Sequence record: LC788708.1
DNA from: Escherichia coli phage AZ21
DNA length: 64,000 nucleotides
Strand: one strand, 5' to 3'
Part shown: one piece after another, positions 6,251 through 50,623 of the stretch
Position numbering within the stretch: position 1 is the stretch's first letter
How the letters are laid out: every line of letters begins with the position of its first letter
Notes under the pieces: generated by a model
Told to the model about the DNA's origin: nothing
The model's database searches: none
What the model saw: only the letters and a program-made list of their open reading frames with translations
Position numbers and translations under genes: made by a program

Positions 6251-6508
6251 ATGGGACTCTTTAGAAAGAAAGTTTATTTAACAGAAGAGCAAGAACACAA
6301 ACTTCTTACTCTATCAGAATACTATCATTTACCATATGATTATTTTGTAGATAGAGCAATAGAGGAATTCTTAGATAGAGAATTAGAGGCTATAAAACCT
6401 AAGCCTCCTGAGCCGTCTTTAGCATCAAAGGGTCACCAAAGAGAATCCCCAAGAGTTCCGCCAATGCCCCCAATTCCACCAAAAACTAGAGTTGTAACAG
6501 AGTTGTAA
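6251..6508 (+). CDS. hypothetical early protein (85 aa, Pro-rich C-terminus)
   Basis: GGAGG RBS and its own promoter. Confidence 0.6.
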   Translation: MGLFRKKVYLTEEQEHKLLTLSEYYHLPYDYFVDRAIEEFLDRELEAIKPKPPEPSLASKGHQRESPRVPPMPPIPPKTRVVTEL

Positions 6509-6524
6509 TAGAAGGTAAAAAATA

Positions 6525-7004
6525 ATGTCGGTTTTCCACATTTACACAGATGGTGCTTGTAAGTCTAACCCAGGTCCAGGTGCTTGGGGTTTTATTGTCT
6601 ATAATGATAACGACGATCGTTTAGGTTCTAAATCTGGTTATAATCCTAAAACTACAAATAATGAGATGGAACTCACAGCTATTGTAGAAGCTCTACGTTG
6701 GTCTGTTAAAAAAGATAATAGACCAATTGCTATCTATACTGACTCTGCTTATTGCAAAAATGGCATGGAAAGCTGGATGTTTTCTTGGCAAAGGAAAGGC
6801 TGGAAGAAAGCAGATGGTGAAGTTCCTCTTAATCTAGAACTTTGGCAGGAAGCATTTAAATTAACACAGCAGTATATCAACTTTCATAATACTAATCCTA
6901 CCTTTATTAAGGTTAAAGGACATTCTGGTATTAGTGGTAATGAAGCTGTAGACGCCTTATGTAATACAGTTATTACTGAAGCTGAAATGGCTGAGATGTT
7001 ATAA
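6525..7004 (+). CDS. rnh: ribonuclease HI
   Basis: YTDGAC..GPGAWG, NNEMELTA, YTDSAY and GHSG..GNE.VD motifs (the RNase HI DEDD set). Confidence 0.9.
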   Translation: MSVFHIYTDGACKSNPGPGAWGFIVYNDNDDRLGSKSGYNPKTTNNEMELTAIVEALRWSVKKDNRPIAIYTDSAYCKNGMESWMFSWQRKGWKKADGEVPLNLELWQEAFKLTQQYINFHNTNPTFIKVKGHSGISGNEAVDALCNTVITEAEMAEML

Positions 7005-7021
7005 ATAAATTAAAAATTTTC

Positions 7022-7050
7022 TTGCTTAAAGCCCTCTAATTTAGTATAAT
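7022..7050 (+). promoter_or_regulatory. T5 early-type promoter
   Basis: TTGCTT, 17 nt, TATAAT. Confidence 0.7.
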
Positions 7051-7077
7051 ATTCGTATTGAAAGTGAGGAGGGATTT

Positions 7078-7356
7078 ATGCGAATTTATAACTCAAATTC
7101 ATTAGGATTTAAACCATTGAGAAAACGTGCACAATCACCTCGTCAAATAAGAAAGGCTAATATTGGTGAGCCAGAGACACGCCTTCCACCTCCTCCAGAA
7201 CAACGTTTAGTTTATCTGGACGAAGAATTAGCTGAACGCGAAAGAAAAGCTCAAGAAGAGATTGAGCGTAAGAAAATGTGTACTGCTCCAGCGTATAATA
7301 AAGGGGCGTATCAATACGTCTCAGATGCCGAACAAGCTAAGATGGTTGGTAGATAA
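7078..7356 (+). CDS. hypothetical early protein (92 aa)
   Basis: GAGGAGGG RBS and its own promoter. Confidence 0.6.
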   Translation: MRIYNSNSLGFKPLRKRAQSPRQIRKANIGEPETRLPPPPEQRLVYLDEELAERERKAQEEIERKKMCTAPAYNKGAYQYVSDAEQAKMVGR

Positions 7357-7372
7357 TTTTTAAAAAATTCAT

Positions 7373-7401
7373 TTGCTAAACGCTTCAAATTCTCGTATAA
7401 T
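7373..7401 (+). promoter_or_regulatory. T5 early-type promoter
   Basis: A-tract, TTGCTA, 17 nt, TATAAT, CATAAATTGA box. Confidence 0.75.
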
Positions 7402-7439
7402 ATACTTCATAAATTGATAAACAAAAAGGAAAACAAATA

Positions 7440-7955
7440 ATGGCTAAGCAGAAAAACGCAAAAACTCAAGCAGCTCCGGCAGTTAAAACTTTCCCGAAGA
7501 CTGAGGCTAATCGCAAAGCTCGGCTGGAACGTCACCTGCGTAAGCATCCTACAGATGCTCAGGCTGCGCAAGCACTGAATAATCCGGCTCCGATTCGTCA
7601 GAAGCCTAAAGCTAAAAATGCCACCCGTAAATCCTACAAAATGGTTATGTATGTAGAAAATTACGGCCACAAATCTGTCCCAGTTTCCCTGAGCTTTAAC
7701 GCTGGGGCTGAATTGTTCTCTCGTAATGGTATGTCTATGAAAGACTATGAGAAGGCAGTTAACCAGAAGCGTAAACCAACAGCAGATGTATTGCGCGATA
7801 CTCGTGGACAGTTTGGTTCTGTTAAGCCAAGTATCTTTGGCGTAGAGTATAGTAAAGATAATGTTCGTGCTCTGTGTTACGGTGTAGGTATTAAGTTCAC
7901 GGGTGATTCTGCTCGTAAATCTGCTAAACCAGCTCGCAAGCGTAAAGCGAAGTAA
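7440..7955 (+). CDS. basic Lys/Arg-rich early protein (171 aa)
   Basis: AAGGAA RBS. Lys/Arg-rich termini. Codon choice resembles the capsid gene. Confidence 0.65.
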   Translation: MAKQKNAKTQAAPAVKTFPKTEANRKARLERHLRKHPTDAQAAQALNNPAPIRQKPKAKNATRKSYKMVMYVENYGHKSVPVSLSFNAGAELFSRNGMSMKDYEKAVNQKRKPTADVLRDTRGQFGSVKPSIFGVEYSKDNVRALCYGVGIKFTGDSARKSAKPARKRKAK

Positions 7956-9552: not shown

Positions 9553-10191
9553 ATGACTACTCGTATCTCTAAAACTCGCGCTCTGGCAACTATCAAATCT
9601 CTGGAAGCTAAAATCCGTAAAGCTACTGAACAACAGCTTCTGATCGCTGTTGGTGAAGGTAAGGATAAAAACCAGGTTGTAGTTGGCGCTGCAATCGAAG
9701 TAGATGCCCTGTCTACTCGTATTAAAACTGATTTCCAATCTCTGCTGGATATGATGTCTCAGCGTGATCGTATTAAATCTGCTCTGATTAAGAGCAATGC
9801 AGAAACAATCGTTGAGATTGGTTCTCGTAAGATGACTGTTGCGGAAGCAATTGAAGCTAAGCGTTCTATGGAGCTTAAAGCTCAGCTGCTGGCTAACATG
9901 CGTAAGCAGTTCCATGCCGCTACGATTAAGTTTAATACGCAGAAAGCACAGTTTGATGCTAAATATGAGCGTTTGCAGGATAGCATGGCTACCCGCGATA
10001 AGAAAACTTCCGAAGATGAAGTTAAAATGCAGCTCAATCTGCTGGAACTCAAGAATACTCCATTCTTGATTGATCCGCTGGAACTGGAGAAGCTGATTAA
10101 GCAGCATGACGAGGAATACCAGGACTTTGCAACAAATGTTGACTTTGTTCTATCCGAGTCTAACGCCTCTACCTTCATTGAAGTAGAGTAA
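9553..10191 (+). CDS. coiled-coil early protein (212 aa)
   Basis: AAGGAA RBS. Strongly host-optimal-looking codons. Three overlapping track ORFs are treated as shadows. Confidence 0.7.
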   Translation: MTTRISKTRALATIKSLEAKIRKATEQQLLIAVGEGKDKNQVVVGAAIEVDALSTRIKTDFQSLLDMMSQRDRIKSALIKSNAETIVEIGSRKMTVAEAIEAKRSMELKAQLLANMRKQFHAATIKFNTQKAQFDAKYERLQDSMATRDKKTSEDEVKMQLNLLELKNTPFLIDPLELEKLIKQHDEEYQDFATNVDFVLSESNASTFIEVE

Positions 10192-12267: not shown

Positions 12268-12766
12268 AACTGGATAACTGATGCTTTTAACGTAAAAGCT
12301 TCCGAGGTTAGTTGCGCACTGCCTAAACCACGCGGTAGTTGGTTCCAGACTAACCAACCAGTCTGCTGAATAGTTTTATTACGATTTAACTATGTCCAGG
12401 CTAAAGAAGAACTTTAGAAGGTATTCTAGGATAGTGAAGTTCTTTCTCCACATCGGAGTAGTTTTTCAAGCTATCCACAAAGTGGGAAATGCTGACATGA
12501 GAGATGTCACTAATGGTGCACAATAGCACAGGTAATTCGCGATAATTCCTGTTGAGTAGCAGCAAAAGGCGGGAAGTCATGACCCCAAGCCTAACCGAGT
12601 CCTCAATATACCGCAGGGCATAACCACTAAGTCACCCTGACTTAAACTGGAAAATAATAGACGTTACTGTATTTTGTCTTGAAATACTTAATGAGTGAGA
12701 CTTATGACTCTCCCGGTATCGTCTGTATTTTTAAGAGTTTTTACGAGAGTTCTTAAAAATACTTAA

Positions 12767-34138: not shown

Positions 34139-34876
34139 TCGGATTCGCACATGCTCTAGGGCAGTTTTTCATCTACTATAAATATCCTAGGCCGGTTTTC
34201 CTATACAGGGCGGTTATGGGGAGGGCGGTTATTTCTAGACAATAAAATTTACTCTTGTCAGTCCAGAAATTACTGTCGGATTTGCACATTGTGTTTCTAG
34301 AAATTTATGGTCGGATTTGCACAATTGCCTAAGTTTTTAGGAACATATAATCTCCTGAAAATGGCAGCATTATTTCGGGCCGAAGGCCCATGATTGCCTG
34401 AGTTTTTTTAGAGACACAGAAATTTTCACTTGTCAAGCTATTTTGCCCCATTTTGCTAATAAAATTTTACTTTATCTCCCCTAATCTCAAATTAACCCAA
34501 ATCTTCTCAACTCTTCTCCAAAATCCCCGCAAATCAGGTGCTCCGCACCAAACATGCGCCCCTCCCGTAGTTCCCCCAAGTTTCTCTCGATCTCTCAACT
34601 TCTCCCCAAACTCATACAATCACACACCCTCCAATCGAAGTCACAAAAATCTTGTCGGATTCGCACAAATAAACCCATGTCGGATTTGCACATATTCTAG
34701 TTAATTCCACAGGATTGATGCGCAGCATCGGATTGCTGGAGTTTTTGGGAGAATTCATTGTCGGATTCGCACACTATAAAAATTTTTCGGGTCGGATTTG
34801 CACACTACCAAAAATTGTCGGATTCGCACATACACGCCCACGCGTAATCCATGGGGGCAAATGTCGGATTTGCACA
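34139..34876 (+). repeat. array of nine direct 14-bp iterons GTCGGATT(T/C)GCACA
   Basis: Copies start at 34139 (lacks the first G), 34275, 34310, 34654, 34679, 34760, 34791, 34817 and 34863. All share one orientation. Confidence 0.9.
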
Positions 34877-37364: not shown

Positions 37365-37859
37365 TTAAACTACTTGTAAGGATTCAATATTGAAACATCG
37401 TTTCAGTTCGTCATGCAAAACGGCATATTCATCCCATCGGGTACTATCAGGAATATAAACAAGCTGTTTTAATCGGTTTGCATATATTACCGCTTTGTTA
37501 TCAATTATCTCGACGCCACCATATTTAATAATTAATTTCATGACGGAATTAATAGGATCGCCGCCGTTTACATATGCGCCGGATTTACTTAATTGATAAT
37601 GATAAAGGCTTGCATATACGTTTTCATTTTCATACCATTCGCCAGTCTCTTCGTCTTCATAGCCATCGCTACCAAAACGAGAAGCATTATCAACAGCCAT
37701 TTCATGAGCAAAAGCGTCCAGATCCGTACCAGCAGGAACAAAATATTCCTCGGTATTCCCTTCCCCGCAATAGCCAGTATGACAATCGACTAAAATGATC
37801 ATATCATGTTTAGCCTTGCTCACTTCCCCTAGCGAGAAGCCGTATTTTTCTTCTAACAT
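37365..37859 (-). CDS. hypothetical acidic protein (164 aa)
   Basis: ATG 37859 after AGGAGACTAATT. Confidence 0.65.
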   Translation of the reverse strand: MLEEKYGFSLGEVSKAKHDMIILVDCHTGYCGEGNTEEYFVPAGTDLDAFAHEMAVDNASRFGSDGYEDEETGEWYENENVYASLYHYQLSKSGAYVNGGDPINSVMKLIIKYGGVEIIDNKAVIYANRLKQLVYIPDSTRWDEYAVLHDELKRCFNIESLQVV

Positions 37860-37923
37860 AATTAGTCTCCTATTAATTAACAAGGAAATAGTAAAGCGGG
37901 GAAATAATCCCCGCTAGATATTA

Positions 37924-38157
37924 TTACTCGTTTTCGGTGTTAGTGGTAAAAGTAGAGATATCGATACCTTTTACCATTTCATCGATCATCTCAGCGATGT
38001 TAAAACTTTGCACCATTTCTAACATTGCCGCTTCCATAGCCGCCCCTGCTACCGCTTTCGCTTTCTGATTAGTCGGGGCGTACTGGTCAACCGCTACACT
38101 CAGCAGGTTAGCGATCACTACACGACCAATCGGCGTATCAATATAGCCTTTGATCAT
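37924..38157 (-). CDS. 77-aa ORF, probably the C-terminal part of the upstream gene
   Basis: Open in the +1 frame relative to 38138-38929. No RBS of its own. Confidence 0.5.
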   Translation of the reverse strand: MIKGYIDTPIGRVVIANLLSVAVDQYAPTNQKAKAVAGAAMEAAMLEMVQSFNIAEMIDEMVKGIDISTFTTNTENE

Positions 38158-38929
38158 AAACGGTGCTTTTTTTAGCCGCTACTTTCGTGATTTGAGTTAG
38201 TGCAATTTTACCAGCTTCCAGTTTTGCAGCGTTTACAACAGCGGATTTATTAGCGGCAACGATATTAGCGATCTTGGTCATGGTATTTTTTCCTTTGTTT
38301 TCAGTAGTTTGAGTATTAACGCTTTGAGTGTTAGAGCTTACAACCTGTTTTTCAATATTGTCAACTGGTTTTAGTGTAAATCCAGCATTTGCAACGTTTG
38401 ATTCATTCCCATACTCTAAATAATCACTAGGGATCAACATGTTGCCACTAGCGCGTTCAAAACATAACACGCCAGTTGTAGAAATTACATTACTATCAGC
38501 ACTTTTGTAATTAGCTGATAGTTCACGCCAAATGCTAGTTAATAACGATCCGACACTATCAGTCCTGATATTACTTACTTTTGTTGCTGTTACTTGCTCT
38601 TTTTCTTGCACGTTATATAATCGCGCAATGTAACCACTATTAGATTCACTATAACCAACAATGATAAAATCAATATCTCTTCCACGTTGATTGCGGAAAA
38701 TGTGATAATCACGGTTGAAAATTACTAGCGCCCTTTTCTGGTCTAGTAATTGTGTGAAATCTTCAACTGAATAATGAGTACCCTCATCGTCTAAAATTCT
38801 ATCATGAATCTTTTCGATAATAGTAGCGGTATGCTGTACGCTTGCCGCGCTACTACCCTCTAACAGATTGCGCAAACTGCCTTTAATAATAGTGGCGTTT
38901 GCTGGTACTGCAATTCTTACAGTAGACAT
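38138..38929 (-). CDS. first gene of the leftward cassette (263 aa as written)
   Basis: GGGAG RBS. Ends 27 nt after an A7 run at 38167-38173. Confidence 0.65.
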   Translation of the reverse strand: MSTVRIAVPANATIIKGSLRNLLEGSSAASVQHTATIIEKIHDRILDDEGTHYSVEDFTQLLDQKRALVIFNRDYHIFRNQRGRDIDFIIVGYSESNSGYIARLYNVQEKEQVTATKVSNIRTDSVGSLLTSIWRELSANYKSADSNVISTTGVLCFERASGNMLIPSDYLEYGNESNVANAGFTLKPVDNIEKQVVSSNTQSVNTQTTENKGKNTMTKIANIVAANKSAVVNAAKLEAGKIALTQITKVAAKKSTVYDQRLY

Positions 38930-38961: not shown

Positions 38962-38991
38962 AATGATAAGGGTAATTTTCTAGCATAGGCA
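38962..38991 (-). promoter_or_regulatory. candidate promoter of the leftward cassette
   Basis: On the minus strand: A-tract, TTGCCT, 18 nt, TATCAT. Confidence 0.4.
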
Positions 38992-39127
38992 AATATTATT
39001 TTACTTTTTTATTTTCCTTGCCTAGCGTCTAATTTTATGCTAACCGCGCAGCGGTGCAATAAAGAGCAAACCACGGCGAAGCCACCAGCCCGACGCATTG
39101 AGGCTTTACTTTAATATTACCTTACAG

Positions 39128-49777: not shown

Positions 49778-49836
49778 ATAAGTATAGGATGGGATACTAC
49801 TCAGTTGGTATCCCATTCCTGCATTTTAAAATCCCC

Positions 49837-49865
49837 TTTACAAATTCGACATGATTATGTATACT
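49837..49865 (+). promoter_or_regulatory. promoter of the endonuclease insert
   Basis: TTTACA, 17 nt, TATACT. Confidence 0.5.
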
Positions 49866-49948
49866 ATATTCATTGATCGGGAGAACTTCTCCCCTAATAG
49901 AACGTAAACAAGAAAAATTAGTGCTCTATACGGAGTGTAGGAGATTCT

Positions 49949-50623
49949 ATGGGTCGACAAAAGCTAACAATAAAAGATATAAATACTAGATTAGCTGATC
50001 GTGGAATCCAAATTGTCGGTGAATATGTAAACCAACGTACAAAAACAGTATTTAAGTGCCAAAGAGCACACGTTTGGGAAGCAACGCCACATTCTATACT
50101 CCATATTAAGAGGGGTTGCCCACACTGCGCACCTAATACTATATTGCTAGATGAAGTTAATAACAGGATATCCAGTATAGGGTATACACTGTTAAATAAC
50201 TATACTAATGCAAAAACAAAACTACATCTACGCTGTAATAATGGTCATGAATGCGATATTACCTTAGATGGGTTGACGCAAGGTAGAAGATGTCCTTATT
50301 GCTCCCTTAAATGGGATAATGGTGGATTTCTCTATATCATGTCCTCTTCTAGGGGTACTAAAGTAGGTATAGGTTTATACCCCGAGAAGCGATTGAACGA
50401 GGTTAAAAGAGAGTCTGGATTTTCAGATCTATACTTATTTACCACGTATCACTTACCTGATAGAGAAACTGCTCTAGATTTAGAAAAAGAAGTCCATAGA
50501 GAATATTATAATAAAAACTGTGGGTTTTCAAAATTTACAGGAAGCACAGAATTTTTTAATGTTGCTCCAGAGGATATAGTAGTCTTTCTAAGTAACTTTG
50601 GATTGGAGGAATATGGCCACTAA
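49949..50623 (+). CDS. T5orf172/GIY-YIG-like putative homing endonuclease with zinc-ribbon repeats
   Basis: Two CxxC...CPxC modules, then GFLYIM...GTKVGIG...R..E motif. Confidence 0.65.
   Translation: MGRQKLTIKDINTRLADRGIQIVGEYVNQRTKTVFKCQRAHVWEATPHSILHIKRGCPHCAPNTILLDEVNNRISSIGYTLLNNYTNAKTKLHLRCNNGHECDITLDGLTQGRRCPYCSLKWDNGGFLYIMSSSRGTKVGIGLYPEKRLNEVKRESGFSDLYLFTTYHLPDRETALDLEKEVHREYYNKNCGFSKFTGSTEFFNVAPEDIVVFLSNFGLEEYGH

What the first reader, a model, noticed from the sequence alone, without database searches (positions are those of the whole stretch)
37924..38929. The first gene of the leftward cassette is split at an A7 run; a +1 shift restores one ~335-aa reading frame
- **On the minus strand:** the 263-aa ORF reads ...GCT AAA AAA AGC ACC GTT TAT GAT CAA AGG CTA TAT TGA.
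- **After skipping one A of the A7 run (38167-38173):** the frame reads ...AAA AAA GCA CCG TTT ATG ATC AAA GGC... This runs straight into the 77-aa ORF, and the protein context stays continuous (Ala/Lys-rich helix ...ITKVAAKK/APFMIKGYIDTPIG...).
- **No independent start:** the downstream ORF has no RBS.
- **Possible explanations:** a homopolymer sequencing error, a genuine inactivating frameshift, or programmed slippage (transcriptional or +1 translational) producing two isoforms.
Basis: seen in the sequence. Interest (0 to 1): 0.5.

Follow-up and report, generated by a model that had tools for sequence, protein, structure and literature searches.

The report
One-base insertion splits T5 pre-early gene 011
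A known, dispensable, host-toxic early gene of this T5-like phage (the counterpart of T5 gene 011) is broken by one extra A in a run of A's; this is an ordinary frameshift or sequencing slip, not a programmed recoding signal.

Summary
On the minus strand, a 263-aa ORF (38138-38929) and a 77-aa ORF (37924-38157) overlap at an A7 run (38167-38173). Removing one A gives a 334-aa protein.

- **Identity:** the window is E. coli phage AZ23 (LC788707). The repaired protein matches Pfam DUF7566 end to end (E 4e-136). It is the orthologue of T5 pre-early gene 011, which published work shows to be toxic to E. coli and dispensable for infection.
- **Not programmed:** every relative checked with an intact gene has A6 and a single ORF of about 334 aa. 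So do all 10 metagenome contigs and all 25 IMG/VR stretches that matched the run pattern. A7 is therefore a one-base insertion private to AZ23.
- **Real or artefact:** this cannot be settled without reads. I lean towards a real, recent mutation. No other conserved gene in the AZ23 window is frame-broken.
- **Recurrence:** the A-runs of this gene carry ±1 alleles in about nine other independent assemblies. One of these was sequenced on Illumina (phiAPCEc03).

Interest is low. The only mildly interesting point is that this toxic, dispensable gene is frameshifted repeatedly.

The parts
37924..38929 (-). Interrupted orthologue of T5 pre-early gene 011 (Pfam DUF7566, PHROG 4263). It gives 334 aa once one A is removed.
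   Evidence: The T5.011 annotation is. Single 1002-1011-nt ORFs in PK7, phiLLS, Stitch, IME178, EscoHU1, Sw2, WP85 and T5.
38138..38929 (-). 5' ORF of 263 aa. It covers the N-terminal globular domain, the linker and most of a long helix, then 10 out-of-frame residues (STVYDQRLY after the second K) and a TGA stop at 38138-38140.
   Evidence: Annotated as AZ23E_1130 in LC788707. Domain layout from the AlphaFold model of a 97%-identical homologue.
38167..38173 (-). A7 run (T7 on the plus strand), the site of the one-base insertion. Relatives with an intact gene have A6 (GCN AAA AAA GCN = Ala-Lys-Lys-Ala).
37924..38157 (-). 3' ORF of 77 aa. It is the last part of the conserved C-terminal helical module, has no Shine-Dalgarno sequence, and its ATG lies 17 nt upstream of the 5' ORF's stop.
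   Evidence: Annotated as AZ23E_1120. Synonymous changes far outnumber non-synonymous ones in this stretch when read in the fused frame.
38206..38209 (-). A4 run (GGT AAA ATT) about 30 nt upstream of the A7 run. It is intact in AZ23 but carries -1 in T5 record AY587007 and +1 in a Logan contig, which produces the same 77-aa ORF there.
38279..38294 (-). SD-like AGGA (38291-38294), a first A6 run (38286-38291) and an in-frame internal ATG (Met217, 38279-38281) at the start of the conserved C-terminal module. It is intact in AZ23. One metagenome contig has A5 at this run.
38963..39024 (-). Two promoter-like sigma-70 hexamer pairs upstream of the gene. T5 annotates a promoter at the equivalent place.
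   Evidence: These are consensus matches only.
37895..37915 (-). GC-rich hairpin (AGCGGGGATTATTTCCCCGCT) followed by a T-rich tail, just after the stop codon. It is a terminator-like site, as annotated after T5.011 in T5.

Best explanation
The two ORFs are the halves of one gene, the AZ23 orthologue of bacteriophage T5 pre-early gene 011 (DUF7566). This gene is the first of one of the two divergent pre-early operons in the terminal-repeat (first-step-transfer) DNA.

**What happened (shown).** The state of every intact relative is GCN-AAA-AAA-GCN (A6). AZ23 carries one extra A (A7). This shifts the frame after Lys253, adds 10 unrelated residues and stops.

**How it most likely arose (inferred).** It is a real, very recent replication-slippage mutation in the sequenced phage stock. 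It is tolerated because the gene is dispensable for growth in the laboratory and its product is toxic to E. coli.

**Expected consequence (inferred).** The product is a 263-aa protein that lacks the last 81 residues of the most conserved (C-terminal) part. That is a loss of function or a strong reduction of function. At most a trace of full-length protein would arise from random polymerase or ribosome slippage on A7. A little of the 77-aa fragment might arise from re-initiation.

**What it is not.** It is not a programmed recoding site.

**Confidence.** The figure of 0.6 applies to the whole statement, including 'real mutation'. That this is one gene with a non-programmed one-base insertion relative to A6 I hold at about 0.95.
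For: **One gene, one-base insertion**
- Searches show the anatomy.
- The full-length DUF7566 and PHROG 4263 matches appear only after repair.
- A6 and a single ORF occur in PK7, phiLLS, Stitch, IME178, EscoHU1, Sw2, WP85 and T5.
- Pattern scans found A7 in 0 IMG/VR stretches, A6 in 25 and A5 in 1.
- All 10 matching metagenome contigs have A6.
- Nearly all of the top 120 protein clusters are 328-340 aa.

**The downstream frame was constrained until very recently**
- In codons 252-334 read in the fused frame, synonymous versus non-synonymous differences to relatives are 15:2, 18:3, 15:2 and 7:2.
- AZ23-private changes in that stretch are two synonymous ones.

**Real mutation rather than error**
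- I ran tblastn with all T5 ORFs of at least 70 aa (127 had hits) against the 64-kb window. Only T5.011 shows a true frame break.
- The other AZ23-private non-triplet indels, judged against both IME178 and T5, lie outside the ORFs tested.
- IME178, by contrast, carries about 10 extra-A differences, most of them truncating ORFs. The AZ23 assembly is therefore not homopolymer-noisy.
- The same run is A5 in phiAPCEc03, which was sequenced on Illumina HiSeq (PMC4900583).
- It is also A5 in MM-1 and MM-2, pork27 and INF11.
- mar004NP2 has a net -1 change there, and its 77-aa product is also on record from a Logan read assembly.
- Neighbouring A-runs are shifted in T5 record AY587007 (A4 to A3), in a Logan contig (A4 to A5) and in a metagenome contig (first A6 to A5).
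- AZ23 also has private substitutions at an invariant and a near-invariant residue (D24E, D50G).

**Tolerated**
- Gene 011 is toxic on ectopic expression (PMC8201957; bioRxiv 10.64898/2026.04.02.716235).
- It lies within a deletion (hegG to 017) that leaves T5 viable.
- The T5 st0 record calls it an 'unessential gene located in del1 region'.
Against: - No reads are available, so a consensus error at a homopolymer cannot be excluded. I could not find which sequencing platform was used for LC788707.
- The allele is known from one phage only. Both protein accessions found carry the AZ23 name.
- There is no decay downstream of the shift. That is what an artefact would also look like.
- Some of the other shifted records are demonstrably noisy. 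INF11 also has its next gene split, and IME178 has many A-run differences. Recurrence at A-runs is therefore partly database noise.
- MM-1 and MM-2 are near-identical, so they may share one systematic error.
- AZ23 has two other private homopolymer length changes, at 34408 and 40231. These could be either real or errors.
Confidence: 0.6

Rival explanations
1. Sequencing or assembly artefact. The phage really has A6 and an intact 334-aa gene, and the deposited consensus has one A too many in a homopolymer.
For: - Homopolymers are the classic site of consensus errors.
- Apart from the extra A, AZ23 has only two synonymous private changes downstream of the run, so nothing has decayed.
- All 10 matching metagenome contigs and 25 IMG/VR stretches have A6.
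- Public T5-like records demonstrably contain such errors. IME178 has about 10 extra-A differences, and INF11 has two adjacent split genes.
- AZ23 has two further private homopolymer length differences, at 34408 and 40231.
Against: - It is the only frame break found in a conserved gene in 64 kb of AZ23. The assembly therefore does not look homopolymer-noisy.
- An Illumina-sequenced relative, phiAPCEc03, carries a length change in the very same run.
- A Logan read assembly reproduces the split product of mar004NP2.
- Real ±1 alleles of this run therefore exist, and the gene is dispensable.
Confidence: 0.3
2. Contingency (phase-variable) switch. The A-runs of gene 011 are mutable tracts that toggle a host-toxic pre-early protein on and off within phage populations. 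AZ23 was caught in the OFF state.
For: - ±1 alleles occur at three A-runs of this one gene in about ten independent assemblies: AZ23, phiAPCEc03, MM-1/2, INF11, pork27, mar004NP2, T5 AY587007, Logan SRR13759996 and the CYGL01 contig.
- The A6 Lys-Lys codons are invariant in the Markadamsvirinae sequences examined, while neighbouring synonymous sites vary.
- The protein is toxic and dispensable, so there is a plausible cost-benefit trade-off.
- In A5 alleles the two halves overlap as ATGA, a coupling arrangement.
Against: - Runs of 4-6 A are short for a contingency tract, and they are common in an AT-rich genome where AAA is the preferred Lys codon.
- More distant homologues lack the run. Spivey has AGC AAA GCG and Slocum has GGT AAG CTG.
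- Shifted alleles are a small minority. In an evenly spaced sample of 60 of the 506 matching phage records, only AZ23 and MM-1 aligned in two frames. No matching metagenome contig is shifted at this run.
- I ran no control to test whether this gene is hit more often than other dispensable genes.
- No data on within-population heterogeneity are available.
Confidence: 0.08
3. Programmed recoding. A +1 ribosomal frameshift or transcriptional slippage on A7 routinely makes both a 263-aa and a 334-aa isoform.
For: - tRNA-Lys on AAA-AAA-A can re-pair perfectly after a +1 slip (read).
- A-runs are known slippage sites for RNA polymerase (my own knowledge of dnaX, IS elements and Buchnera poly(A) tracts).
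- The downstream ORF has no RBS of its own.
Against: - The out-of-frame arrangement is private to AZ23, and relatives encode the long form directly with A6.
- Other shifted alleles go the opposite way (A5), which would need a different shift.
- The A-site codon after the run is an ordinary AGC, not a stop or a rare codon. No SD-like stimulator lies a few nt upstream.
- Seven A's is below the roughly 9 or more usually needed for efficient transcriptional slippage (my own knowledge).
- The 10-residue out-of-frame tail is not a conserved sequence.
Confidence: 0.03

Closest known systems
Bacteriophage T5 pre-early gene 011 (T5.011, YP_006839; '37 kD pre-early protein' T5p010 in AY692264); Pfam DUF7566, PHROG 4263
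   Same: - End-to-end profile match after repair.
- tblastn against T5.011 gives about 48% identity over the N-terminal part and 96% over the C-terminal 82 residues.
- Same position: first gene after the divergent pre-early promoter region in the terminal-repeat DNA, followed by a terminator.
- By orthology it is expected to be host-toxic and dispensable.
   Different: - The AZ23 copy is interrupted by a one-base insertion.
- The N-terminal domain is quite diverged from that of T5.
- AZ23 carries an extra 172-aa ORF between the 011 and 012 orthologues that T5 lacks.
Frameshifted alleles of the same gene in other T5-like records: phiAPCEc03, vB_EcoS_MM-1/MM-2, INF11, pork27 and mar004NP2 at the same run; T5 AY587007 ORF011/ORF012 at the A4 run
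   Same: The same gene is split into an N-terminal ORF of about 250-260 aa plus the identical-length 77-aa ORF, by a ±1 change in an A-run within the same 40-nt stretch.
   Different: - At this run the other alleles are all -1 (A5), which makes the stop overlap the downstream ATG as ATGA. AZ23 is the only +1 (A7) allele found, and its stop lies 17 nt past the ATG.
- A Logan contig has a +1 change at the neighbouring A4 run.
Programmed frameshifts and transcriptional slippage in bacteria and phages (prfB +1; dnaX and tail-chaperone G/GT -1; IS-element and mxiE slippage)
   Same: A homopolymeric or slippery A-run at the junction of two overlapping frames, with a downstream ORF that lacks its own RBS.
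   Different: - The out-of-frame arrangement is not conserved.
- There is no stimulatory element or pause codon, and the run is short.
- Relatives make the long protein without any shift.
Homopolymer-tract contingency loci (phase variation by slipped-strand mispairing)
   Same: Recurrent ±1 length changes in a coding mononucleotide run that switch a costly gene off.
   Different: The tracts are short (4-6 nt). They are not conserved outside one subfamily. There is no evidence of reversibility or of mixed populations. The minority alleles may simply be neutral losses or errors.

Membership tests
T5.011 / DUF7566 pre-early protein family | Full-length match to the family profile | tested here: met
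   After one A is removed: Pfam PF24450, residues 1-334 against profile 1-336 of 336, E 4.1e-136, 454 bits against a cut-off of 27. PHROG 4263, 1-334 of 334.
T5.011 / DUF7566 pre-early protein family | Genomic position: first gene of one of the two divergent pre-early operons in the terminal-repeat / first-step-transfer DNA, between a promoter and a terminator | tested here: met
   The homologous region lies inside the annotated terminal repeat in Stitch, EscoHU1, Sw2, T5 and MM-1. Promoter-like and terminator-like sites flank the AZ23 gene. The A2, A1 and dmp orthologues lie on the other side in the close relative IME178.
T5.011 / DUF7566 pre-early protein family | A single uninterrupted ORF of about 330-340 aa | tested here: not met
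   AZ23 has 263-aa and 77-aa ORFs because of the A7 run. This is a disrupted member of the family, not a non-member.
T5.011 / DUF7566 pre-early protein family | Toxicity to E. coli, nucleoid disorganisation, and dispensability for infection | not testable with these tools
   Known for T5 gene 011 only (PMC8201957; bioRxiv 10.64898/2026.04.02.716235).
Programmed +1 ribosomal frameshift | The out-of-frame arrangement and shift site are conserved among relatives | tested here: not met
   Intact relatives are in frame with A6. A7 occurs in 0 IMG/VR stretches, A6 in 25 and A5 in 1. All 10 matching metagenome contigs have A6.
Programmed +1 ribosomal frameshift | A pause-inducing A-site codon (stop or rare) and/or an upstream SD-like stimulator | tested here: not met
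   The codon after AAA-AAA is AGC. The upstream sequence is AAAGTAGCGGCT, with no GGAGG-like element.
Programmed transcriptional slippage | A long A/T run (typically 9 or more) conserved together with the out-of-frame arrangement | tested here: not met
   The run is 7 nt and private to AZ23. The length threshold comes from my own knowledge of the literature.
Phase-variable contingency locus | Recurrent independent ±1 changes at the same tract | tested here: inconclusive
   A7 occurs in AZ23. A5 or a net -1 change occurs in phiAPCEc03, MM-1/2, INF11, pork27 and mar004NP2. Some of these records are error-prone, and I ran no control gene.
Phase-variable contingency locus | The tract is maintained by selection across the family | tested here: not met
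   The run is absent from the Klebsiella, Serratia and Proteus phage homologues.
Phase-variable contingency locus | Mixed ON/OFF sub-populations within one stock, and reversibility | not testable with these tools
   This needs reads or experiments.

The most novel reading that the evidence does not exclude
The short A-runs in the conserved C-terminal part of T5.011-family genes act as a mutational on/off switch for a host-toxic but dispensable pre-early protein. T5-like phage populations would then repeatedly and reversibly generate 011-minus variants, of which AZ23 A7 is one. In the A5 form, the ATGA overlap would let the two halves be made as separate, coupled polypeptides.
Probability: 0.08. 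Interest if true: 0.55.

Novelty: already known. Interest (0 to 1): 0.2.

Why it matters
**Annotation.** The two 'hypothetical proteins' AZ23E_1130 and AZ23E_1120 should be read as one disrupted T5.011/DUF7566 gene. They are not two genes and not a recoding site.

**Biology.** If the A7 is real, AZ23 is a natural 011-defective T5-like phage. That fits the published finding that gene 011 is toxic to the host yet dispensable. It could serve as a natural knock-out for asking what 011 does.

**The broader point.** Gene 011 is frameshifted at A-runs in many independent T5-like assemblies. This suggests either frequent loss during propagation or systematic homopolymer errors in deposited genomes. 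It is cheap to test and has modest consequences.

Tried and rejected
- **Programmed frameshift or slippage.** Rejected, because intact relatives are in frame with A6 and no stimulatory features are present.
- **The 'DNA N-6-adenine methyltransferase' label** on some homologues (phiLLS, STG2, UniRef). It is not supported by any Pfam hit: only DUF7566 matched, plus a sub-threshold bMG3 hit. I treat it as a propagated mis-annotation.
- **Sequencing platform for AZ23.** Literature searches for AZ23, Shin27 and the LC7887xx accessions found no description. LC788708 is not in the phage collection.
- **An apparent second frameshift in AZ23, in the T5.154 orthologue (about 49930).** Rejected. The indel lies upstream of the real start (MGRQKL... 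with a GGAG), in what looks like a non-coding hairpin region that T5's annotation over-extends into.
- **A first protein search with the 77-aa ORF alone** returned only 2 candidates, so it was not usable as a census. The exact-sequence cluster look-up was more informative.
- **A fuzzy-regex script** timed out.

Full report
**1. The observation**

- A 263-aa ORF (38138..38929) follows a good RBS (GAGGGAG).
- It runs through GCT AAA AAA AGC and stops at TGA ten codons later.
- A 77-aa ORF (37924..38157) starts at an ATG that lies inside the tail of the first ORF.
- The A7 run is at 38167-38173.
- Removing one A gives a 334-aa ORF with the junction ...ITKVAAKKAPFMIKGYIDTPIG....
- The 22 nt before the downstream ATG hold no Shine-Dalgarno core.

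**2. What the gene is**

The window is 100% identical to E. coli phage AZ23 (LC788707, genus Tequintavirus). There the two ORFs are annotated as separate hypothetical proteins AZ23E_1130 and AZ23E_1120.

The repaired protein matches Pfam DUF7566 over its whole length (1-334 of 336, E 4e-136) and PHROG 4263 (1-334 of 334). Its T5 counterpart is T5.011 (6495..7505 of NC_005859, 336 aa). This is the first gene after the divergent promoter region in the terminal repeat, and a terminator follows it. The AZ23 gene has promoter-like sites upstream and a GC-rich hairpin with a T-rich tail just after its stop. The T5 st0 record calls the gene '37 kD pre-early protein, unessential gene located in del1 region'.

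[quoted passage not shown] The second paper adds three points:
- The wild-type gene could not be cloned.
- Its expression disturbs nucleoid organisation.
- A T5 mutant deleted from hegG to 017 is still viable.

**3. Relatives: one ORF, A6**

PK7, phiLLS, Stitch, IME178, EscoHU1, Sw2, WP85 and T5 all annotate a single ORF of 1002-1011 nt. All read GCN AAA AAA GCN at the site.

| Source | A7 | A6 | A5 |
|---|---|---|---|
| IMG/VR pattern scans (stretches) | 0 | 25 | 1 |
| Metagenome scan allowing A5-A7 (contigs) | 0 | 10 | 0 |

Nearly all of the best 120 protein clusters are 328-340 aa. The exact repaired AZ23 sequence is not in the 15-billion-protein collection, but the 263-aa and 77-aa products are, from AZ23 only.

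The C-terminal third is the most conserved part of the family. It is the only part shared with Klebsiella, Serratia and Proteus phage homologues. In codons 252-334, read in the fused frame, synonymous differences to relatives far outnumber non-synonymous ones (15:2, 18:3, 15:2, 7:2).

A7 is therefore a one-base insertion private to AZ23 in a gene that was under purifying selection until very recently. That rules out a conserved programmed frameshift. The local sequence offers no stimulator: the next codon is AGC and no SD-like element lies upstream. Seven A's is short for efficient transcriptional slippage (my own knowledge of that literature).

**4. Real mutation or artefact?**

No reads are available, and I could not find a description of how AZ23 was sequenced. 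The indirect evidence is as follows.

(a) *Assembly quality.* I ran tblastn with all T5 ORFs of at least 70 aa against the window, and 127 had hits.
- Only T5.011 changes frame inside a real gene.
- The apparent break in the T5.154 orthologue lies upstream of its true start.
- I polarised AZ23-versus-IME178 indels with T5. The AZ23-private non-triplet indels are at 12429, 13863/13873, 25554, 34408, 39807, 40231 and 38173.
- Of these, only 38173 breaks a conserved ORF.
- IME178 carries about ten extra-A differences, and most of those checked truncate ORFs that are intact in AZ23.
- AZ23 therefore does not look like a homopolymer-noisy assembly.

(b) *The A-runs of this gene vary elsewhere too.*

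| Run | Change | Record | Note |
|---|---|---|---|
| This A6 run | A5 | phiAPCEc03 | Illumina HiSeq per PMC4900583 |
| This A6 run | A5 | MM-1, MM-2 | near-identical records |
| This A6 run | A5 | pork27 | |
| This A6 run | A5 | INF11 | noisy record; its next gene is also split |
| This A6 run | net -1 | mar004NP2 | its 77-aa product is also on record from Logan |
| A4 run, about 30 nt upstream | A3 | T5 AY587007 | split into ORF011 and ORF012; the other two T5 records are intact |
| A4 run, about 30 nt upstream | A5 | Logan contig SRR13759996 | |
| First A6 run, before Met217 | A5 | CYGL01 metagenome contig | |

At least some of these alleles are very likely real.

(c) *Weak sign of relaxed constraint.* AZ23 has private substitutions at an invariant and a near-invariant residue (D24E, D50G).

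*Against a real mutation.* There is no decay downstream of the shift. There is a single source. Homopolymer errors are generally common in deposited phage genomes.

My estimates:

| Explanation | Probability |
|---|---|
| Real, recent slippage mutation | about 0.6 |
| Consensus error | about 0.3 |
| Contingency switch | about 0.08 |
| Programmed recoding | about 0.03 |

**5. Consequences if real (inferred)**

The 263-aa product keeps the N-terminal domain, the linker and most of the long helix. It loses the last 81 residues of the conserved module, so I expect loss of function.

The 77-aa ORF has no RBS, and its ATG lies 17 nt upstream of the stop. At best, weak re-initiation would express it. 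In the A5 alleles of other phages, by contrast, the stop overlaps the ATG as ATGA, the classical coupling arrangement.

Spontaneous +1 slippage of tRNA-Lys, or loss of one A by RNA polymerase, on A7 could give traces of full-length protein. Nothing suggests this is efficient.

**6. Comparison with known things, and novelty**

This is a disrupted member of a known family (T5.011/DUF7566) with a known phenotype. The type of lesion, a ±1 change in a coding homopolymer, is commonplace. It does not meet the defining features of programmed +1 frameshifting or programmed transcriptional slippage. It meets only one of three features of a contingency locus, and that one inconclusively.

The one point that goes beyond routine is how often this toxic, dispensable gene is hit at its A-runs in independent T5-like genomes. 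I did not run a control gene, so I cannot say the frequency is unusual.

**Verdict**
- The programmed option is rejected.
- Interest is low (0.2).

Noticed in passing
window 38279-38294 (minus strand); L010, L004, L054, L056, L055: The conserved C-terminal module of the family begins at an in-frame Met (Met217 in AZ23) that is present in all homologues examined, although their N-terminal domains are unrelated. An SD-like core lies 6-9 nt upstream of it in Markadamsvirinae (AGGA), Klebsiella phage Spivey (GGAG) and Proteus phage PM135 (AGGA); Serratia phage Slocum has only GAG. The background for any ATG in the window is 7.9%. Gene calls of 118 aa starting at this Met exist in ENA, Logan and NCBI contigs. 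This may be a nested C-terminal isoform or the trace of an old gene fusion.
   Followed up: partly
L007, L011, L053, L037, L060 (INF11, MM-1, MM-2, phiAPCEc03, pork27): In records with A5 at this run, the upstream ORF's TGA overlaps the downstream ATG as ATGA, a translational-coupling arrangement. The -1 alleles could therefore still make both halves.
   Followed up: partly
L058 (T5 AY587007, 6417-7426) versus L010 (NC_005859): One of the three T5 genome records splits gene 011 into ORF011 and ORF012, through loss of one A in GGC AAAA TTG. The other two T5 records are intact. A Logan contig (SRR13759996) has +1 at the same A4 run.
   Followed up: yes
L038/L039 (IME178, MZ398246) versus window positions 10007, 20873, 22356, 24298, 26746, 27479, 39977, 40097, 55660, 58726: IME178 has one extra A at about ten A-runs. 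Most of those checked truncate ORFs that are continuous in AZ23, and T5 does not share any of them. This looks like systematic homopolymer error in that record.
   Followed up: partly
window 49789-50620: The T5.154 ('endonuclease') orthologue most likely starts at the ATG near 49937 (MGRQKLTIKD..., preceded by GGAG). The T5 annotation extends about 49 codons further upstream, through a hairpin-like sequence. AZ23 has a 1-nt indel in that extension.
   Followed up: partly
window 34408 and 40231: These are two further AZ23-private homopolymer length differences in non-coding DNA. One is T7 against T5 in the injection-stop-signal region. The other is A7 against A6 just upstream of a TTGACA box in the divergent pre-early promoter region.
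   Followed up: no
window 37365-37883 (minus strand): A 172-aa ORF lies between the 011 and 012 orthologues. It is present in PK7, IME178, Stitch, EscoHU1, Sw2 and MM-1 but absent from T5, phiLLS and WP85, so it is a variable accessory pre-early gene. In INF11 it is split in two.
   Followed up: no
homologues P0015, P0019, P0090 and others; L003: Many database entries call this protein 'DNA N-6-adenine methyltransferase'. No methyltransferase domain is detectable; the only significant Pfam match is DUF7566. The label looks like a propagated annotation error.
   Followed up: partly
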